Assembly: GCF_009914755.1 (NCBI RefSeq)
Contig: NC_060940.1
Source of the DNA: the human T2T-CHM13v2.0 reference genome, Homo sapiens
Length of the DNA stretch: 64,000 nucleotides
Direction: 5' to 3' (one strand)
Shown: piece after piece, positions 3,317 to 62,579 of the stretch
How the letters are laid out: each line of letters opens with the position of its first letter
Position numbering within the stretch: the first letter of the stretch is position 1
Made by a program: the position numbers and the translations under genes
The notes under the pieces: model-generated
The model's database searches: none
What the model saw: only the letters and a program-made list of their open reading frames with translations
What the model was told of the DNA's origin: nothing

Positions 3317-3632
<316 letters not shown>

Positions 3633-4369
3633 TCTAGACACAGAACTTATACTCTTCATAAAAATTAACTCAAAATGGATCATAGACCTAAATGTACAAA
3701 TGCAAAACTATAAAACTCCTAGAAGATGACATAGGAGAGAACCTTGATGGCCTTGAGTATGGCAATGAATTTTTAGATGCAACACCAAAGACCTGATCCA
3801 TGAAATAAATAATTGATAAGCTGGACTTGATTTAAATTTAAAAACTTCTGCTCCATGAAAGACAATGTCAAGACAATGACAAGACAAGCCAGAGACTGGG
3901 AGAAAATACTTGCAAAAAACATATCTGATGAAGGACTATTATCCAAATATACAAAGAACTCTTGAAACCCAACAATAAGACAATGAATAATGCTATTTAA
4001 GAATGGGCCAATGGCCTTATCAGATACTTCACAAAAGGAGACATACAGACAGCAAATAGCATATGAAAAGATGCTCCACATCATATGTCATCAGGGAAAT
4101 GCAAATTAAAACAATGAGATACCACTATGAACCTATTAGAATGGCCAAAATCCAGAACACAAACAACACTAAATGCTGATGAGGATGTGGAACAACAGAA
4201 ACTCTCATTCACTCCTGGTGGGAATGTAAAATGGTACAGCCATTTTGGAAGACATTTTGGCAGGTTTTTATAACACTAAACATCATCTCACCATTTGGTC
4301 TAGCAATTGCACTCCTGGGTATTTACCCAAAGGAGCTGAAAACTTATGCCCACACGAAATGCTGCAATA

Positions 4370-10699: not shown

Positions 10700-10930
10700 T
10701 CCTGCCCCTCCCTCTGTGAGATGCTCACAGCACCCTACTGGTTTCCTCTTTGCACTGACCACATTGTCACCATGCCTGTTTGCATGCATATTTGAGTGAC
10801 GTCTCATTAGCTCCACGAGGGCAGGAACCTTGGCTGCTGTGCCCACTGTTTTGTCCCTAGCAGTGAGCACAGCATGGTGCCTGGCTCTGTGTTCAAAACA
10901 TGAACCTTGAATGAATGAATGAATGAAGCT
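10700..10930 (+). mobile_element. L2 3' end
   Basis: agctccacgagggcaggaacc...cctagca...cctggc, ending in a (TGAA)n tail. Confidence 0.7.
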
Positions 10931-15399: not shown

Positions 15400-15730
15400 A
15401 CTTTTGGTGGGGGGCTGGATGCTCTCCCTCCCACTCTTGGCCTGGCTAATGTCTTCTCATCCTTCAGAACTCAGGGCTCCAGGAGACCTTCCCATACCCA
15501 AGTGAGGTGAGGACTCCAGGCTTGTGATCTTGGAGCTCCCTGTGCTTATCCTCAGTCCTTGCCCCAGGGGTGAGGTGCTTGTTGGGGTGATCAGTAACTC
15601 AATGTCTGTCTCTCCCAGCAAGCTCCCTGAGGCCAGGAACCATGTCTTTCGGTCACTGCTGTATCTCCAGTGCCCACCATAATGTCTGGCTCATAGTACA
15701 TGCTCAATAAATGTTCACAGGATAAATGAG
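15400..15730 (+). mobile_element. L2 3' end
   Basis: tcactgctgtatctccagtgccca...catagtacatgctcaataaatg. Confidence 0.75.
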
Positions 15731-23546: not shown

Positions 23547-24418
23547 AGTTACAGTTCTGAAGTATACAGAAAGTCAAACTCCAAATGAACAGTGCTGGCA
23601 TTTGCCCAACTAGGGAACTGGGGAAAAGAACTGCCGTCAGGGGACTGAAGAGGCAGTGGGATGGGCACAGAGCCACGGCAGCAGGGAACAGCTCGAGAGC
23701 CAGGCCGAGTTCTCTGCTGAGGGGCACCAGGCCTGAGTTTCAAGTTACTCAACTCCGAAATAGTTGGCCCCTTCCAGCATTTTCTGACTGGGGTGGATAC
23801 TCCTGAAGCCCTGTTTGTGCAGGTCTTTGGACCTTTCTAAACAATCTGCAAATCCTTGCTAAAGACAGTAACACGTGTTACTCAAGACTCGATTTCAAAG
23901 GACGTAAATCCAACTGGAATGACCAGCTTAAGCAAAAAGTGTGTTAGAATACTGGGGTGTGGTGACGTCCGAGGAAGGGCTTTCCTGACAACAGGAACCC
24001 AAGGCTCATGCTGCCAGGAACCTCTCTCACGTCGCCGCTTCTTTCCTGCCACAGGTCGACTTCCCCCAGGGTGGAAAATGGCTTCTGACAGACCTGGGCC
24101 TGGCATCCCACGATTCCCACCACCACAGAGGAACTCCCCAGGAGTGACTTGGACTGGCATAGGTTGGGCCGGCTGTCGGCCCTGGCCAGGAAGCCTGAGT
24201 GCATCTAGTATGCAGCCTGCGCCAGGTACCCCTCCCCGGACCTGTGTGCCCAGGATGCCATGTGCTGGAGCCTGGCAGGGGAGGGAGAAGGGAGTGGAGT
24301 GACCCCAGCCCCACCCCACTGTCCCACTGCAGGGCAGTGGATTCCCGGCCTCTTACTGGTCCTGCTGCCAGATGCCGCAGTCAAGAAGGCACTGTCCTCC
24401 AGTTCAGTTGAGCAGACA

Positions 24419-24424
24419 TTTATT
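24419..24424 (-). terminator. Distal poly(A) signal AATAAA, L2-derived
   Basis: Minus strand reads gataggtgcttAATAAAtgtctgctcaactgaa, the L2 3'-terminal motif. Confidence 0.7.
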
Positions 24425-24497
24425 AAGCACCTATCAAGTGCAAGGCACTGTGCTAGGCGCCGTGGGAAATACAGAGAACACAGGCGGTCCCTGCCCA

Positions 24498-24516
24498 CGA
24501 GGAGCTCACAGTCTAG
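24498..24516 (-). promoter_or_regulatory. miR-151a-5p / miR-28-5p extensive-complementarity target site
   Basis: Plus strand cgaggagctcacagtctag equals miR-151a-5p nt 2-20 (UCGAGGAGCUCACAGUCUAGU, from memory), so the minus-strand mRNA is complementary. Confidence 0.85.
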
Positions 24517-25226
24517 AAAGGGCAGCAAGACAGTACACAATCAGTGGCAGCAGCACCAGCCAGAGTGGCAAGTGCTCAAAGCGAGACACAAAGTGCTGTG
24601 CGGTCACAACATCATGGGGATGCTTCTGGCAGAAGCACTGGAAAGGAGACGAGGACTCAGGCTGGGCCTTCCAGGAGGGAAGCCATTTGGGAGAAGGGCA
24701 TCTCTAGCGGAGAGAGGTCCATCTGCAGAGCCCACAGGTCATGGGAAACATGTGGCTGCAGGGAGAGTTTGGGGACAGTCAAGTATGGCTGGGAGGTGGA
24801 CAGCCACGGACACTAAGCTCAGGAGATGTGAACTTTGTGGTCTGGTCAAACAGCCACTGCAGATCACTTCGCAGGAGGAGGGGTGACTAGAAGTATGTTA
24901 CTGGAAGGTAAATCTGGCCACACTGCAGCATCTGGACGGCAGAGGGCAGCGCTGGGAGGGGCCAGCCAGTTAGGGCCCACCACCCCTGGGTGTCTGAGAG
25001 TGGGAGTAGCGGGCAGGGGCCAGCAAAGCACGAGGGCAGAGCAGGGGACCATACGGAGGGTGGGTGTGGAAGAAGGGAGGGGCCCCATGCAAGCTGCAGG
25101 TCTGGGGAGCCTGAGGATGTCATAGGGCTTCCTGGTAGAGTGGAAAGTGCACTCCTGAAGGTCAGGGCCAGTCACTACAGAGAGGGGACAGCGAGGAGAG
25201 GGACGGTGTGGCCCTAAGGGTGACTG

Positions 25227-27570: not shown

Positions 27571-27576
27571 TTTATT
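27571..27576 (-). terminator. Candidate intermediate poly(A) signal AATAAA
   Basis: Plus strand tttatt at 27571-27576 within the 3'UTR. Confidence 0.3.
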
Positions 27577-28004
27577 GGCTTGGGTCACTTTTGAGAATAG
27601 AAAACCATTTTTTGGCAAAGCTGTACAAACTCCACATCAGGGCGTCTCCTGCAGTTGGGGACACAAGATGGCCACAGTGACCGGGCTCTTCATTAAACTT
27701 CCTCATAACCCGCTACGGTGTTCAGAAGCTAAGACGTGACTTCCAGAGCCAGGCCAGGCATGTGGAGGCCCCTGACTGTGGGCGTGTCAAGCCCTGGCTG
27801 GGGAGCCTGCTGCCTGCCCGGCCACTCCTCAGCTGTGGCTGTGGCTGTGGGCATGGCCGGACGGCGTGCACACTGGGCCGTCCCCTTTTGCGCAGGGTGG
27901 AAGGGGGAAGGAGGGTGGGACTCCATGGGCTCCACGATGTCTTCTAGCCCTGGTATTCTGTGAGACTAACTTCGCCCTGGTCATTCACCATGGCTAGGCA
28001 CCAA

Positions 28005-28018
28005 GTGCCATCTAGTGG
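28005..28018 (-). promoter_or_regulatory. CTCF core motif
   Basis: Minus strand CCACTAGATGGCAC matches CCASYAGRKGGCRS at 14/14 positions. Confidence 0.6.
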
Positions 28019-28213
28019 CACCGCGGGTCCACTTTCACAACACTCCAACCAAAGACTGCAGAACAAACCAACTCTTACCCACTTTAACTCCGGGGGTGAG
28101 GGCAGAGGAGGCTGGAAGGGTGAGCACACTTCATGGTAGTGATGGGACATACTCATCTCAAGAAAATATACTTTAAGACGTCTTGCTTTCCTTAAGAAAG
28201 CAACACTTTTTTT

Positions 28214-28223
28214 TTTATTTATT
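28214..28223 (-). terminator. Candidate proximal poly(A) signals (overlapping AATAAATAAA)
   Basis: Plus strand tttatt at 28214-28219 and 28218-28223, ending an AU-rich block of ~360 nt after the stop. The adjacent A-run could also cause internal priming. Confidence 0.5.
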
Positions 28224-59725: not shown

Positions 59726-62579
59726 CTTATGATTTATAATTCTTTAGGTAACCATCAGAACAAACAGCTAAAAACAATAAAAAATAGTTGCCTCTAGGAA
59801 GTTAGGGAGGCTTAGAAGCAAGGAACTGCTGCTGTACACATAAATCTTTTAGTACTACTTGATTTTCTGTTTTAAACCATGCGTATATATTATTTTGGTA
59901 CACTTCCCACCTTCTACTTTTAATAAAAAAATTTTCAAGTGGATGCATAACATGCTATGATGTGTCGCTGATAGTTTTGGCCCTAATTTTAAGTTTTGCT
60001 TGTTTCTTATCTGACATTTGAGATAAGGAATGTCAGCAGTTATGAAATATTGAGTAATTCATCCACAAAACAAACATTTTCTATTACCTCCCTGTTACTT
60101 TTCTGGATTAGTTTAATTGAATATTATTATGCAAGAATAGCTGCTTGAAAATGTTAAATCTATAACTAATTGTATGACTTCAAATGTTCTCCATACTATA
60201 CAACCAAAATAAAACGTAAAATTAAACTGGAGGTTGAGACAGATAACTGCAGAAAGACCAGTGAACAACCTTAATTTTTTGTCATTTTTTAAATGACAAT
60301 CACAAAACTCCCGACATTTTAATCAACTTAAGTCAGTATTATATATTTGAACTTACAGAAATTTCATACTAGAAAATACTCAATCTGAGGTATTATTTAC
60401 CAACAAATCCATTGATTTCTCATAGCATATACAACAATCTTTTCACAGAAAGTGATATTCAGGGGAATATGTTCAGACATTGTTTGGGTTACAAAATTAA
60501 GTAAGAGTCAGATCCTCTGAAAGCATCACAGAGGGCCAGAGGAGAGCTCCTGGGTCTCCTGTGCTGGAAGTGTGGAAGTACTGGCAAGACTGGCAGAGAA
60601 AGGCTGACCACAGACAGAGTTGTCTGACAGTATTCCTCATATAACTAAAACTAGTATTACAAGATGAACTGCATAGTTTTGGGAAAGAGCTGTGCAAAAT
60701 GCTTATGACTGCTTCACATGCACAAACCCATTTTTTTTGGTGTCCCCAAAACAATTATCCCCTAAGATTCAGATTTCAATAACAACTTACTCTTCTGAAG
60801 TACTGAGTAGCAACAACGGATTATTATATTCGAGTTCAGAAGTGAACAATAAAGTATACAGCATTATTAAGTTTGAGATGTTTGGCCACTACTTACACTC
60901 ATAAGAAAGATAATGCAGTCCAAATATCCATCATTTGAATTGGCTGTACTTGGTATCTGGACATTTTTAATGTTAGTTAAAAATATCTCCCCCATCCTAC
61001 AATGTTCTTATTCTGTTTTACTTTACTCAGGCTTTTAAGAAAAAAGGGGGAGGGGCATGATATACATGATATATAAGTTAACTTTCTTTTATGTGGTACA
61101 TGGAATTTGTATTATTCTACCTTTTATAAACTCAGTTTTTCTCAACTCTATCATAACATTTCACAAATCCAGAGAGGAGTTCCCGGCAACTTCTACCATT
61201 CAAAACACAGCTAAAACCAGAAATGACCAAAGCAGGGGCTCAAGAGTATGCAGGTTTGACCTGGGGAAATGTTTCTTCACACCACTACTCAGCATCTTGT
61301 ACTTTTTAGTATTGGCATACACTAAAGGGGCTCGGCCAGCTTCACCCAGGCTGCATATTCTCAGAAGCAGCTGACTCTTAAGTGTAGAAGGGGCAGCACT
61401 GAGTGCTACCTGAAGAGCACACGAGAGCAAATGGCAATGGACAAACAGAGCGAAAAACAAATTCAAGGCAGACACAACGGTTAAAAACCACAGCAGCCCA
61501 AGACCAGCTACCATGGGGGTAGGTATGACATACTTGCCAGCTGCAAGGAGCATCACTCCACCATGGCACAACATAAGATGTTCAAGTCAACCACAAGTCA
61601 CTGGGAAAAGAGAAACTACACATGCAAGGAAACTCAAAATATTAAGGAGGGATTTCTAAAATGGTTCAGACCAGTAGTTCTCAATGCTGGATGCACACTT
61701 TAGTATGCTATTTTTTTTTTTTAGGAGACTCTTTCATAAGAGGTGTTCTGTATTATCTCTAAGAGAAAAGGAGAATATGACTTTCAGACATTAACGTGAG
61801 TCCTACAGCATAAACATGAATTAGAAGTACCACAAAAGCCTCAGAAAAAAAACAAATTTTTAATCATTAATCTGTAAGTCTATAACAGGTCTATTTTAGG
61901 TCTCTAGCCATCTATATTAGTAAGATTGCTATCAAATTAATAATGCCTTTATTAGCCATTTTCCCCCAATATAATTTCAACATTTGCTGTCTGTTCCATC
62001 TTTTTCTTTAACCTCATCTCTAAAATGTCTATGAAGTTCATTCCTGGAAGGGTGCTTATCTGCCCCATAGGAAAGGACTTCCCTGCATGGTCATACTGAG
62101 TGTACTCCTAGAGACAGGACCAGCTGCCATACTGTGTCTACTCTAGACGCTATCCCTACTACATCTGTAAATCTCCACAATTTGACAGCTTCAAAAACTT
62201 CCAGCTCTCCTGATTTTTTCTTCACTCTTATCCAAAGAACCTCTTCAAGTTCCCAAATCTCATGTCTGTTGTCATTCTTCTCATTCTTAATAAAAAGTAT
62301 ATTTGATCAGAGCCCAGAAGTCAGTATGTGTGAATCCCTTTGACTTCTCCTCCATTTCATCTAAAAATTCTACCTTTCATGACTTCCTTCTCCTTCCTAC
62401 TTTTTCAAAGTCATGTCTTTGCATTCTGCCTTATCTCAGGCTTCATCACTTCTCTGTTTACCCACTGCTGCCCCTCTGCCTACAAACACGCTTGGATTTC
62501 CCACATCCTACAGAAAGCTTCCTTCAAATCCACTGCTGATGCGTGGAACTACCCCATTTCTGTCCTTTCATCTTCACAC

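What the first reader, a model, noticed from the sequence alone, without database searches (positions are those of the whole stretch)
24400..24520. One L2 relic supplies both the distal poly(A) signal and a slicing-grade miR-151/miR-28 site in N4BP1
Seen: the end of the 3'UTR is a sense L2 3' end. It contains AATAAA (24419-24424) and, ~75 nt upstream in the mRNA, the exact complement of CGAGGAGCTCACAGTCTAG (24498-24516). Known (miRNA sequences from memory): this is miR-151a-5p nt 2-20 and miR-28-5p nt 2-17; both miRNAs are L2-derived, and miR-708 shares the miR-28 seed. Inference: pairing through nt 10-11 allows AGO2 cleavage, which is rare in mammals and would cut off the poly(A) tail. Exact retention of 19 nt in an otherwise decayed L2 suggests selection. 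I recall N4BP1 being reported as a miR-151/miR-28 target, so the site is probably known; its coupling to the terminator on the same element is the notable part.
Basis: partly seen in the sequence, partly recalled or inferred. Interest (0 to 1): 0.8.

Follow-up and report, generated by a model that had tools for sequence, protein, structure and literature searches.

The report
Known miR-151 slicing site beside L2 terminator
The last ~115 bases of the N4BP1 mRNA are an ancient LINE-2 tail that carries both the gene's distal poly(A) signal and the already published miR-151-5p cutting site, so the finding is real but largely known.

Summary
On the mRNA (minus) strand, 24516-24498 pairs with miR-151a-5p nt 2-20 and miR-28-5p nt 2-17. 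AATAAA lies at 24424-24419, 73 nt further on, and the RefSeq mRNA ends 16 nt later at 24403.

Both features sit in one LINE-2 (L2) 3' tail. Homology to other L2 tails runs from the site to about the mRNA end and then stops.

The site is well known. miR-151-5p-guided cleavage of N4BP1 was the most prominent miRNA-directed cut in mouse PARE data (PMC3141239). The human site, 3'UTR positions 4077-4083 (window 24504-24498), is the active one in reporter assays (PMC3426544). Its L2 origin is published (PMC3469430). L2 tails donating AATAAA to genes are published too (PMC2553571).

What may be unreported is the conjunction in this gene. I read it mainly as a by-product of L2 tail anatomy: 23 of 76 near-perfect genomic copies of the site keep a hexamer 50-100 nt downstream.

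A new side observation: loci consistent with LYPD3 and ATPAF1, the other conserved miR-151-5p cleavage targets, show the same layout (hexamer 58 and 74 nt after the site). Their mRNA ends were not verified.

Verdict: already known, low interest.

The parts
24403..24522 (-). L2 (LINE-2) 3'-tail relic in sense orientation, forming the last ~115-120 nt of the N4BP1 mRNA
   Evidence: 7 of 13 non-self genomic matches run colinearly from the site through the hexamer at 73-78% identity. Two in-window paralogues align over the same span. Identity to the majority of 29 other copies is 52/72 between site and hexamer, 6/6 in the hexamer, 8/16 in the tail and 4/23 beyond the mRNA end. N4BP1 is listed as an L2B-derived target in PMC3469430. 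The 5' boundary is approximate.
24498..24516 (-). Complement of miR-151a-5p nt 2-20, the published slicing site. The seed match 24498-24504 equals 3'UTR positions 4077-4083.
   Evidence: Mouse PARE gave 1097 reads (PMC3141239). A human luciferase reporter showed activity at position 4077-4083 (PMC3426544).
24500..24515 (-). Complement of miR-28-5p nt 2-17, nested in the same site. The miR-708-5p seed match is 24500-24506.
   Evidence: Read against the sequences printed.
24506..24507 (-). Predicted AGO2 scissile bond for miR-151a-5p, opposite guide nt 10/11. It would leave a 104-nt 3' fragment plus the poly(A) tail.
   Evidence: Register, fragment length. The cut itself is inferred for human and published for mouse.
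24419..24424 (-). AATAAA, the distal poly(A) signal. It lies at the hexamer position of the L2 tail.
   Evidence: It is the only AATAAA or ATTAAA in the last 3.1 kb of the 3'UTR, and there is none in the 500 nt beyond. It matches the family majority 6/6.
24403..24403 (-). Annotated 3' end of NM_153029.4, 16 nt after the hexamer. Detectable L2 homology stops about here.
   Evidence: Hub annotation.
24470..24473 (-). TGTA, a UGUA-type upstream poly(A) auxiliary motif, 46 nt before the hexamer and inside the L2 tail
   Evidence: TGTA in L2 tails is noted in PMC2553571. Its function here is inferred.
24428..24460 (-). Predicted hairpin of the L2 tail, directly upstream of the hexamer
   Evidence: Present in both the MFE and the centroid structure. 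The whole 158-nt fold is no more stable than shuffles (z = -0.19), so this is weak evidence.
27571..28223 (-). Proximal AATAAA hexamers (28223-28218, 28219-28214, 27576-27571). mRNA isoforms ending here would lack the slicing site.
   Evidence: N4BP1 poly(A)-site switching is reported in PMC5333124. Which hexamers are used was not verified.
25192..25198 (-). Second miR-151a-5p 7-mer seed match (3'UTR positions 3383-3389), without extended pairing
   Evidence: Reported inactive in the reporter assay (PMC3426544).

Best explanation
A 5'-truncated LINE-2 element inserted in sense orientation in what is now the end of the N4BP1 transcription unit, before the radiation of placental mammals. Its ~115-nt tail still carries two things that every L2 tail had at birth.

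(a) The AATAAA (plus a TGTA) in the last ~50 nt. Together with non-L2 downstream sequence, it now defines the distal poly(A) site at 24403.

(b) About 75 nt upstream, the segment from which the antisense arms of mir-151, mir-28 and mir-708 were later made elsewhere in the genome.

Because miR-151a-5p pairs with the mRNA through nt 2-20, AGO2 loaded with it slices the mRNA between 24507 and 24506. This removes the last 104 nt and the poly(A) tail, and the body of the mRNA is then degraded. miR-28-5p (nt 2-17) can use the same site, by slicing two bases upstream or by ordinary repression. miR-708-5p can only act as a seed-type repressor.

Only the full-length isoform made with the distal signal carries the site. 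Isoforms made with the proximal AATAAA hexamers escape.

The physical coupling of site and terminator is a by-product of L2 tail anatomy. A sense L2 tail whose hexamer still works necessarily becomes the end of the 3'UTR, which places its miR-28-family site about 100 nt from the poly(A) tail.

What is shown here: the sequence, the registers, the L2 homology and the hexamer map. What is taken from papers: cleavage in mouse tissues, conservation, human reporter activity and alternative polyadenylation (APA). What is inferred: the insertion history, slicing in human tissues at the exact bond, and escape of the short isoforms.
For: Sequence and registers.

Uniqueness: 0 of 100 shuffles; 7 exact copies in 3.1 Gb, control 0.

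One element spans both features:
- 7 of 13 non-self matches run from the site through the hexamer at 73-78% identity.
- two in-window paralogues, one ending in a TGAA repeat.
- 52/72, 6/6 and 8/16 identity inside the tail, and 4/23 beyond the mRNA end.

The hexamer is the only canonical signal in the last 3.1 kb of the UTR, and the annotated end follows 16 nt later.

Published support:
- PMC3141239 (passages read): miR-151-5p cleavage of N4BP1 gave 1097 PARE reads. The text gives both six adult PARE libraries and 'all seven tissues' for this total. [quoted passage not shown] The site is conserved in the 30-way alignment. The cleavage was also found by two other groups.
- PMC10772731 (passage): the N4BP1, ATPAF1 and LYPD3 cleavage sites are conserved in mammals.
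- PMC3426544 (passages): human 3'UTR position 4077-4083 responds to miR-151a-5p mimic and inhibitor. maps it to 24504-24498.
- PMC3469430 (passages): N4BP1 is listed as an L2B-derived miR-28 target. miR-28 verification is attributed there to Girardot 2010.
- PMC2553571 (passages): the last 50 nt of the L2 plus strand hold AATAAA and TGTA and tend to lie upstream of poly(A) sites. There are 50 conserved and 302 non-conserved L2-associated human sites.
- PMC5333124 (passages): N4BP1 switches poly(A) sites in infected macrophages, and its 3'UTR isoforms give different reporter output.

By-product reading: 23 of 76 copies with at most 1 mismatch have AATAAA or ATTAAA 50-100 nt after the site. The control window at 103-153 nt has 3 of 76.
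Against: - No repeat library (RepeatMasker or Dfam) was available. The L2 assignment rests on similarity to other genomic copies and on one paper's table.
- Homology upstream of the site is not detectable in my alignment (17/45, the same as background), so the element's 5' edge is uncertain.
- Rfam finds no mir-28-family match in 23900-25100. This is expected for a single arm, but it gives no independent support.
- Human degradome data were not seen. Shin 2010 and Karginov 2010 are not held, and the supplements of PMC3141239 and PMC2553571 could not be read.
- PARE used oligo-dT-primed full-length cDNA. The very high N4BP1 read count may therefore partly reflect the short, 104-nt distance to the tail rather than unusually efficient slicing.
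- The mRNA end at 24403 comes from the annotation supplied with the finding, not from 3'-end reads that I saw.
Confidence: 0.85

Rival explanations
1. The coupling is itself selected. The L2 tail works as a portable 'terminate and slice' cassette, and placing the slicing site within ~100 nt of the poly(A) tail matters. It could matter for accessibility, for the fate of the short tailed fragment, or to make slicing strictly dependent on choice of the distal poly(A) site.
For: The layout recurs in loci consistent with the two other conserved miR-151-5p cleavage targets named in PMC10772731.
- C19 locus: three UPAR_LY6-like exon pieces, a 21/21 complement, and AATAAA 58 nt after the site as the last hexamer.
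- C1 locus: an ATP11 C-terminal exon, a site with 1 mismatch, and AATAAA 74 nt after it as the last hexamer in the sequence fetched.

Among the other 73 near-perfect copies, only 20 have a hexamer at 50-100 nt. Three of three therefore has a rough chance of 0.02 (my arithmetic). N4BP1 undergoes APA.
Against: A sense L2 tail with a working hexamer must end the UTR, so terminal position is expected without selection for coupling. Degradome libraries primed with oligo-dT favour cuts near the tail, which would enrich exactly such targets among those detected. The mRNA ends of the two other genes were not verified. Their gene identities rest on sub-threshold Pfam matches and recalled map positions. 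Three further loci (C1:98740991, C4:17428869, C23:52667991) carry the full 21-nt complement, as does the mir-151a locus on C8. None of them has a hexamer 50-100 nt after the site.
Confidence: 0.12
2. In human tissues the site acts mainly as an ordinary repressive site for the miR-28 seed family (miR-28-5p, miR-708-5p), not through slicing by miR-151a-5p.
For: miR-28-5p pairs at nt 2-17 and miR-708-5p has a seed match. N4BP1 is cited as an experimentally verified miR-28 target (PMC3469430). Both miRNAs are broadly expressed (PMC6433296).
Against: Mouse PARE ends fit the miR-151-5p register and are by far the strongest of all miRNA-directed cuts. Human reporters respond to miR-151a-5p mimic and inhibitor. 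The two modes are not exclusive.
Confidence: 0.1
3. The 19 nt are conserved for a reason unrelated to miRNAs, for example as an upstream auxiliary element of the poly(A) site or as part of the annotated enhancer at 24251-24750. Alternatively the mRNA acts as a decay trigger (TDMD) for miR-151 rather than as its substrate.
For: The site lies 92-110 nt upstream of the cleavage site and inside a RefSeq 'enhancer' interval (hub table). Highly complementary targets can destabilise miRNAs (general knowledge).
Against: Cleavage products in the miR-151-5p register are observed. Pairing is uninterrupted through the centre, which favours slicing. The central mismatch typical of TDMD triggers is absent.
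Confidence: 0.03

Closest known systems
miR-151-5p-guided cleavage of N4BP1 mRNA (Bracken 2011, PMC3141239; also Karginov 2010 and Shin 2010, cited there but not held)
   Same: It is the same site. [quoted passage not shown]
   Different: Nothing biological. The passages I read do not mention the L2 origin or the adjacent poly(A) signal. The full text was searched only for N4BP1, miR-151, LINE and miR-28, for author names and for method terms. Figures and supplements were not seen.
L2-miRNA / L2-target network (OrbId 2012, PMC3469430; Petri 2019, PMC6433296)
   Same: [quoted passage not shown] N4BP1, LYPD3 and ATPAF1 are in OrbId's miR-28 list.
   Different: Petri 2019 contains neither 'N4BP1' nor 'polyadenylation' (0 occurrences each). 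Neither paper, in the passages read, links the target site to the L2 poly(A) signal.
L2- and MIR-derived poly(A) sites (Lee, Ji and Tian 2008, PMC2553571)
   Same: AATAAA and TGTA in the last 50 nt of the L2 plus strand lie upstream of a gene's cleavage site, with downstream elements supplied by the flank. Here homology ends at the mRNA end.
   Different: That study is a genome-wide survey. Whether N4BP1 is among its 352 L2-associated sites could not be checked, because the supplement was unreadable. It does not discuss miRNA sites.
miR-196-directed cleavage of HOXB8 mRNA
   Same: A conserved mammalian miRNA that slices a conserved, near-perfectly paired 3'UTR site (mentioned).
   Different: It is not transposon-derived, as far as I recall. 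It was not detected in the mouse PARE data in which N4BP1 was prominent.
LYPD3 and ATPAF1 miR-151-5p/miR-28 sites
   Same: L2-derived sites in 3'UTRs (PMC7913837) and conserved cleavage sites. In the loci I fetched, an AATAAA follows 58 and 74 nt after the site.
   Different: The LYPD3-like site is complementary over all 21 nt. The ATPAF1-like site has a G:U wobble at guide nt 3, and its AATAAA appears to lie in the TGAA-repeat part of the tail rather than at the usual L2 hexamer (read by eye).

Membership tests
Animal miRNA-directed AGO2 slicing site | Uninterrupted pairing from the seed through guide nt 10-11 and well beyond | tested here: met
   miR-151a-5p nt 2-20 and miR-28-5p nt 2-17 match without a gap or mismatch (one search read).
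Animal miRNA-directed AGO2 slicing site | 5'-monophosphate RNA end opposite guide nt 10/11 | not testable with these tools
   Published for mouse tissues (1097 PARE reads, PMC3141239). Human degradome data were not seen.
Animal miRNA-directed AGO2 slicing site | Dependence on AGO2 catalysis and on the miRNA | not testable with these tools
   Karginov 2010 is not held. Human reporter dependence on miR-151a-5p is shown in PMC3426544, but that does not demonstrate slicing.
LINE-2 (L2) 3'-end fragment | Colinear similarity to many dispersed genomic copies over the whole segment | tested here: met
   13 non-self matches, of which 7 span the site through the hexamer at 73-78% identity; 2987 matches at up to 3 mismatches, against 214 for the control; 66/94 identity to the family majority.
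LINE-2 (L2) 3'-end fragment | Assignment by a curated repeat library, and a TGAA-type terminal repeat | tested here: inconclusive
   No repeat library is on hand. The N4BP1 copy ends in a degenerate ...CAACTGAAC. The paralogue at 10809-10888 shows the TGAA repeats. OrbId lists N4BP1 as L2B-derived.
TE-derived poly(A) site, L2/MIR type (Lee 2008) | AATAAA of the L2 plus-strand tail lies 10-30 nt upstream of the mRNA end | tested here: met
   The hexamer is at 24424-24419, the annotated end at 24403, 16 nt apart. The hexamer columns equal the family majority 6/6.
TE-derived poly(A) site, L2/MIR type (Lee 2008) | Experimental 3' ends at this position | not testable with these tools
   Only the RefSeq model supplied with the finding was available. 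No 3'-seq or PolyA_DB access.
TDMD trigger site | Seed plus 3' pairing separated by central mismatches or a bulge | tested here: not met
   There is no central mismatch for miR-151a-5p or miR-28-5p.

The most novel reading that the evidence does not exclude
The L2 tail is a recurrently exapted 'terminate and slice' cassette. In all three conserved miR-151-5p cleavage targets (N4BP1, LYPD3, ATPAF1), the slicing site and the terminal poly(A) signal come from one L2 tail 58-74 nt apart. Slicing is then wired to the isoform that the element itself creates, and alternative polyadenylation switches it on or off. Nearness to the tail would be selected, not incidental.
Probability: 0.12. Interest if true: 0.55.

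Novelty: already known. Interest (0 to 1): 0.22.

Why it matters
N4BP1 is the clearest endogenous case of miRNA-directed slicing of a mammalian mRNA. Pinning the human site, its cut position, its L2 origin and its distance to the poly(A) site to exact coordinates is useful bookkeeping. It is not a discovery.

The one point with some reach is methodological and evolutionary. Sense L2 tails that still terminate transcripts automatically place a miR-28-family site about 100 nt from the poly(A) tail. That may explain why such targets dominate oligo-dT-based degradome lists. It also means that sensitivity of N4BP1, an interferon-stimulated gene with reported poly(A)-site switching, to miR-151 depends on use of the distal site.

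Tried and rejected
- Rfam scan of 23900-25100 at E up to 10: 12 matches, all far below gathering scores, none from the mir-28 clan. The target is a single arm, not a hairpin.
- Fold of the last 158 nt of the mRNA: -45.3 kcal/mol, z = -0.19 against shuffles. This gives no evidence for a special structure. Only the small L2 hairpin before the hexamer is consistent between MFE and centroid.
- Whole-genome search with Pfam ATP11 to place ATPAF1: no match. It was replaced by a Pfam scan of 95 ORFs of the locus (1 hit, just under the cut-off).
- Gene context of the three other exact 19-mer copies (C1:98740991, C4:17428869, C23:52667991): 143 ORFs of at least 45 aa in 10 kb upstream of each gave only one RVT_1 fragment, so context remains unknown. 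I suspected PLPPR5 for the C1 copy from recall only and do not claim it.
- 'Selection from exact retention alone': rejected as insufficient (see the first-reader field).
- miR-95-3p, another L2 miRNA that is antisense to the hexamer region: compared by eye with 24429-24408 using the sequence. It has no seed match, so it is not a site.
- Shin 2010 and Karginov 2010 could not be read. Supplements of PMC2553571 and PMC3141239 could not be searched.
- One further in-window candidate paralogue (61344-61478) did not align convincingly and was dropped.

Full report
**Observation**

Searches show the quoted 19-mer at + strand 24498-24516. The complement of AATAAA lies at 24419-24424. N4BP1 is on the minus strand, so the mRNA reads the target site first. 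The hexamer follows 73 nt later, and the annotated end (24403) comes 16 nt after the hexamer.

I did not use miRNA sequences from memory. Table 3 of PMC6433296 prints them. Read against that table:
- miR-151a-5p matches the + strand at nt 2-20 and mismatches only at nt 1 and 21.
- miR-28-5p matches at nt 2-17.
- miR-708-5p matches at nt 2-8, then has a G:U wobble at nt 9 and a mismatch at nt 13.

The 3' products would be 104 and 106 nt plus the tail.

The match is not chance. The 19-mer is unique in the window at up to 3 mismatches, with 0 of 100 shuffles matching. It occurs exactly 7 times in the 3.1-Gb assembly, and the reversed-pattern control gives 0.

**Is it one L2 tail?**

No repeat library is available, so I used other copies.
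- A search of the window's own genome with 24560-24400 gave 13 non-self matches. Seven run colinearly from the site (query 39-46) through the hexamer (query 137-142) at 73-78% identity, and an eighth starts inside the site.
- Two copies in the window itself (15621-15714 and 10809-10888, + strand) align over the same span. One ends in TGAA repeats.
- I aligned the first 30 of the 76 genomic copies that have at most 1 mismatch in the site. Against the majority of the other 29, the N4BP1 copy scores 52/72 between site and hexamer, 6/6 in the hexamer, 8/16 from hexamer to mRNA end, and 4/23 beyond the mRNA end.

Homology therefore stops where the mRNA stops. The site and the signal belong to one element whose last bases coincide with the cleavage site. 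Upstream of the site I could not detect homology (17/45, the same as background), so the 5' edge near 24516-24522 is approximate.

OrbId (PMC3469430) independently lists the N4BP1 3'UTR among L2B-derived miR-28 targets. One of the seven exact copies (C8) is the mir-151a hairpin itself (Rfam mir-28 family, 73.9 bits). Another (C14) lies about 200 nt from a mir-342 hit. By recall only, that second copy is MIR151B.

**The poly(A) signal**

The 4178-nt 3'UTR has AATAAA only at 28223, 28219, 27576 and 24424. It has no ATTAAA, and there is no further hexamer in the 500 nt beyond the annotated end. A TGTA lies 46 nt upstream of the distal hexamer, inside the L2 tail.

Lee, Ji and Tian (PMC2553571, passages) described this arrangement in general. 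The last 50 nt of the L2 plus strand carry AATAAA and TGTA and tend to lie just upstream of poly(A) sites. They counted 50 conserved and 302 non-conserved L2-associated human sites. [quoted passage not shown] I could not check whether N4BP1 is in their list, because the supplement was unreadable.

**What is already published about the site**

- Bracken et al. (PMC3141239, passages) report that miR-151-5p-guided cleavage in the N4BP1 3'UTR is by far the most prominent miRNA-directed cut in mouse PARE data, with 1097 reads. One passage attributes that total to six adult PARE libraries and another to all seven tissues. [quoted passage not shown] The site is conserved in the 30-way alignment and had been found by two other groups.
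- A 2023 review (PMC10772731) states that the N4BP1, ATPAF1 and LYPD3 cleavage sites are conserved in mammals.
- In human prostate cancer cells, 3'UTR position 4077-4083 responded to miR-151a-5p mimic and inhibitor, while position 3383-3389 did not (PMC3426544). maps these positions to 24504-24498 and 25198-25192.
- N4BP1 poly(A)-site switching in infected macrophages, with different output from the 3'UTR isoforms, is reported in PMC5333124.

**Selection**

The argument from exact retention is weaker than it looks. With 66/94 (70%) identity in the rest of the tail, 19/19 has a per-copy probability of about 0.001. But the genome holds 2987 matches at up to 3 mismatches, against 214 for the control, and many more diverged copies. 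A handful of exact survivors is expected.

Most one-mismatch copies differ at the CpG at the seed end. Among the 76 copies, the site ends in TTG in 34 and in TCG in 20. The N4BP1 copy has therefore kept a fast-decaying CpG, which is suggestive but not decisive. The solid evidence for constraint is the published conservation and the cleavage in mouse.

**Is the coupling notable?**

Among all 76 copies with at most 1 mismatch, 23 have AATAAA or ATTAAA 50-100 nt after the site (19 have AATAAA). The control window at 103-153 nt has 3. Joint retention is thus common for well-preserved tails.

There is also a structural reason. A sense L2 tail whose hexamer still works will end the transcript, so it becomes the end of the 3'UTR by construction. 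I therefore read the coupling as a by-product of tail anatomy. Its real consequence is that only the distal-site isoform is sliceable.

I found no paper stating the conjunction. Three searches bear on this: L2 element, polyadenylation, miR-151, miR-28; 35 papers, listing seen; N4BP1 with alternative polyadenylation; 10 papers; N4BP1, slicing, AGO2; 1 paper. Petri 2019 has 0 occurrences of 'polyadenylation' and of 'N4BP1'. Subscription papers and figures were not seen.

**A side observation that goes beyond the finding**

The C19 exact copy lies downstream of three ORF pieces with UPAR_LY6 similarity (E 1.6e-4 to 6.8e-3, all below the cut-off). This is consistent with LYPD3. The site there is complementary to all 21 nt, and an AATAAA follows 58 nt later as the last hexamer after the stop codon.

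The C1:46510065 copy (1 mismatch) lies 2.9 kb downstream of an ORF matching the C-terminus of ATP11 (1 of 95 ORFs; E 3.2e-4; 21.1 bits against a 22-bit cut-off). This is consistent with ATPAF1. An AATAAA follows 74 nt after the site.

All three conserved miR-151-5p cleavage targets may thus share the 'site plus L2-tail terminator' layout. Excluding these three, 20 of 73 copies have such a hexamer, so three of three has a rough probability of 0.02 (my arithmetic).

Two mundane explanations compete with selection. One is the structural necessity above. The other is a detection bias, because PARE used poly(A) selection and oligo-dT(18)V-primed cDNA amplified as full-length product, which favours cuts close to the tail. 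The authors themselves note a 3' bias. I did not verify the mRNA ends of these two genes.

**Verdict**

The feature is real and correctly read, and its core is already in print. The coupling to the L2 poly(A) signal is a correct anatomical remark that follows from known L2 tail anatomy. Interest is low. The only open and modestly interesting question is whether nearness to the tail is functionally selected or merely structural and technical.

Noticed in passing
L045:252-335 (G000:C19:46281151-46281234, minus strand): Locus consistent with LYPD3. It has a full 21-nt complement to miR-151a-5p, followed 58 nt later by AATAAA in an L2-tail context, and this is the last hexamer after the stop codon. 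A proximal AATAAA lies at L045:630.
   Followed up: partly
L046:286-384 (G000:C1:46509985-46510083, minus strand): Locus consistent with ATPAF1 (an ATP11 C-terminal exon lies 2.9 kb upstream). The site has one mismatch, a G:U wobble for miR-151a-5p. Its AATAAA, 74 nt later, appears by eye to sit in the TGAA-repeat part of the L2 tail, while the usual L2 hexamer position is decayed.
   Followed up: partly
G000:C1:98740991-98741009, C4:17428869-17428887, C23:52667991-52668009 (L015, L016, L021): Three further genomic places carry the full 21-nt complement of miR-151a-5p in L2-sense copies. None has a hexamer 50-100 nt after the site. Pfam scans of 10 kb upstream gave no gene domain, so it is unknown whether they are transcribed. 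If they are, they are candidate slicing targets.
   Followed up: partly
L018:1501-1519 and 1720-1818 (G000:C14:94342484 region): An exact copy of the 19-mer lies about 200 nt from a strong mir-342 match (125.5 bits). By recall this is the MIR151B locus, but Rfam does not call a mir-28-family hairpin there at gathering score.
   Followed up: no
window 15621-15714 and 10809-10888 (+ strand): Two other L2 3' tails lie downstream of N4BP1. The first keeps AATAAA and the second ends in TGAA repeats. In both, the miR-151/miR-28 site is decayed. They serve as untranscribed or neutral comparators.
   Followed up: partly
window 24260-24330 (minus strand): A G-rich then C-rich tract (runs of GGGG/GGG followed by CCC/CTCCC) lies 75-140 nt downstream of the cleavage site, inside the RefSeq 'enhancer' interval 24251-24750. 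It could be a G-rich downstream auxiliary or pause element of the poly(A) site. Not tested.
   Followed up: no
window 25192-25198 (minus strand): A second 7-mer seed match for miR-151a-5p (3'UTR positions 3383-3389). The literature reports it as inactive in reporters.
   Followed up: yes
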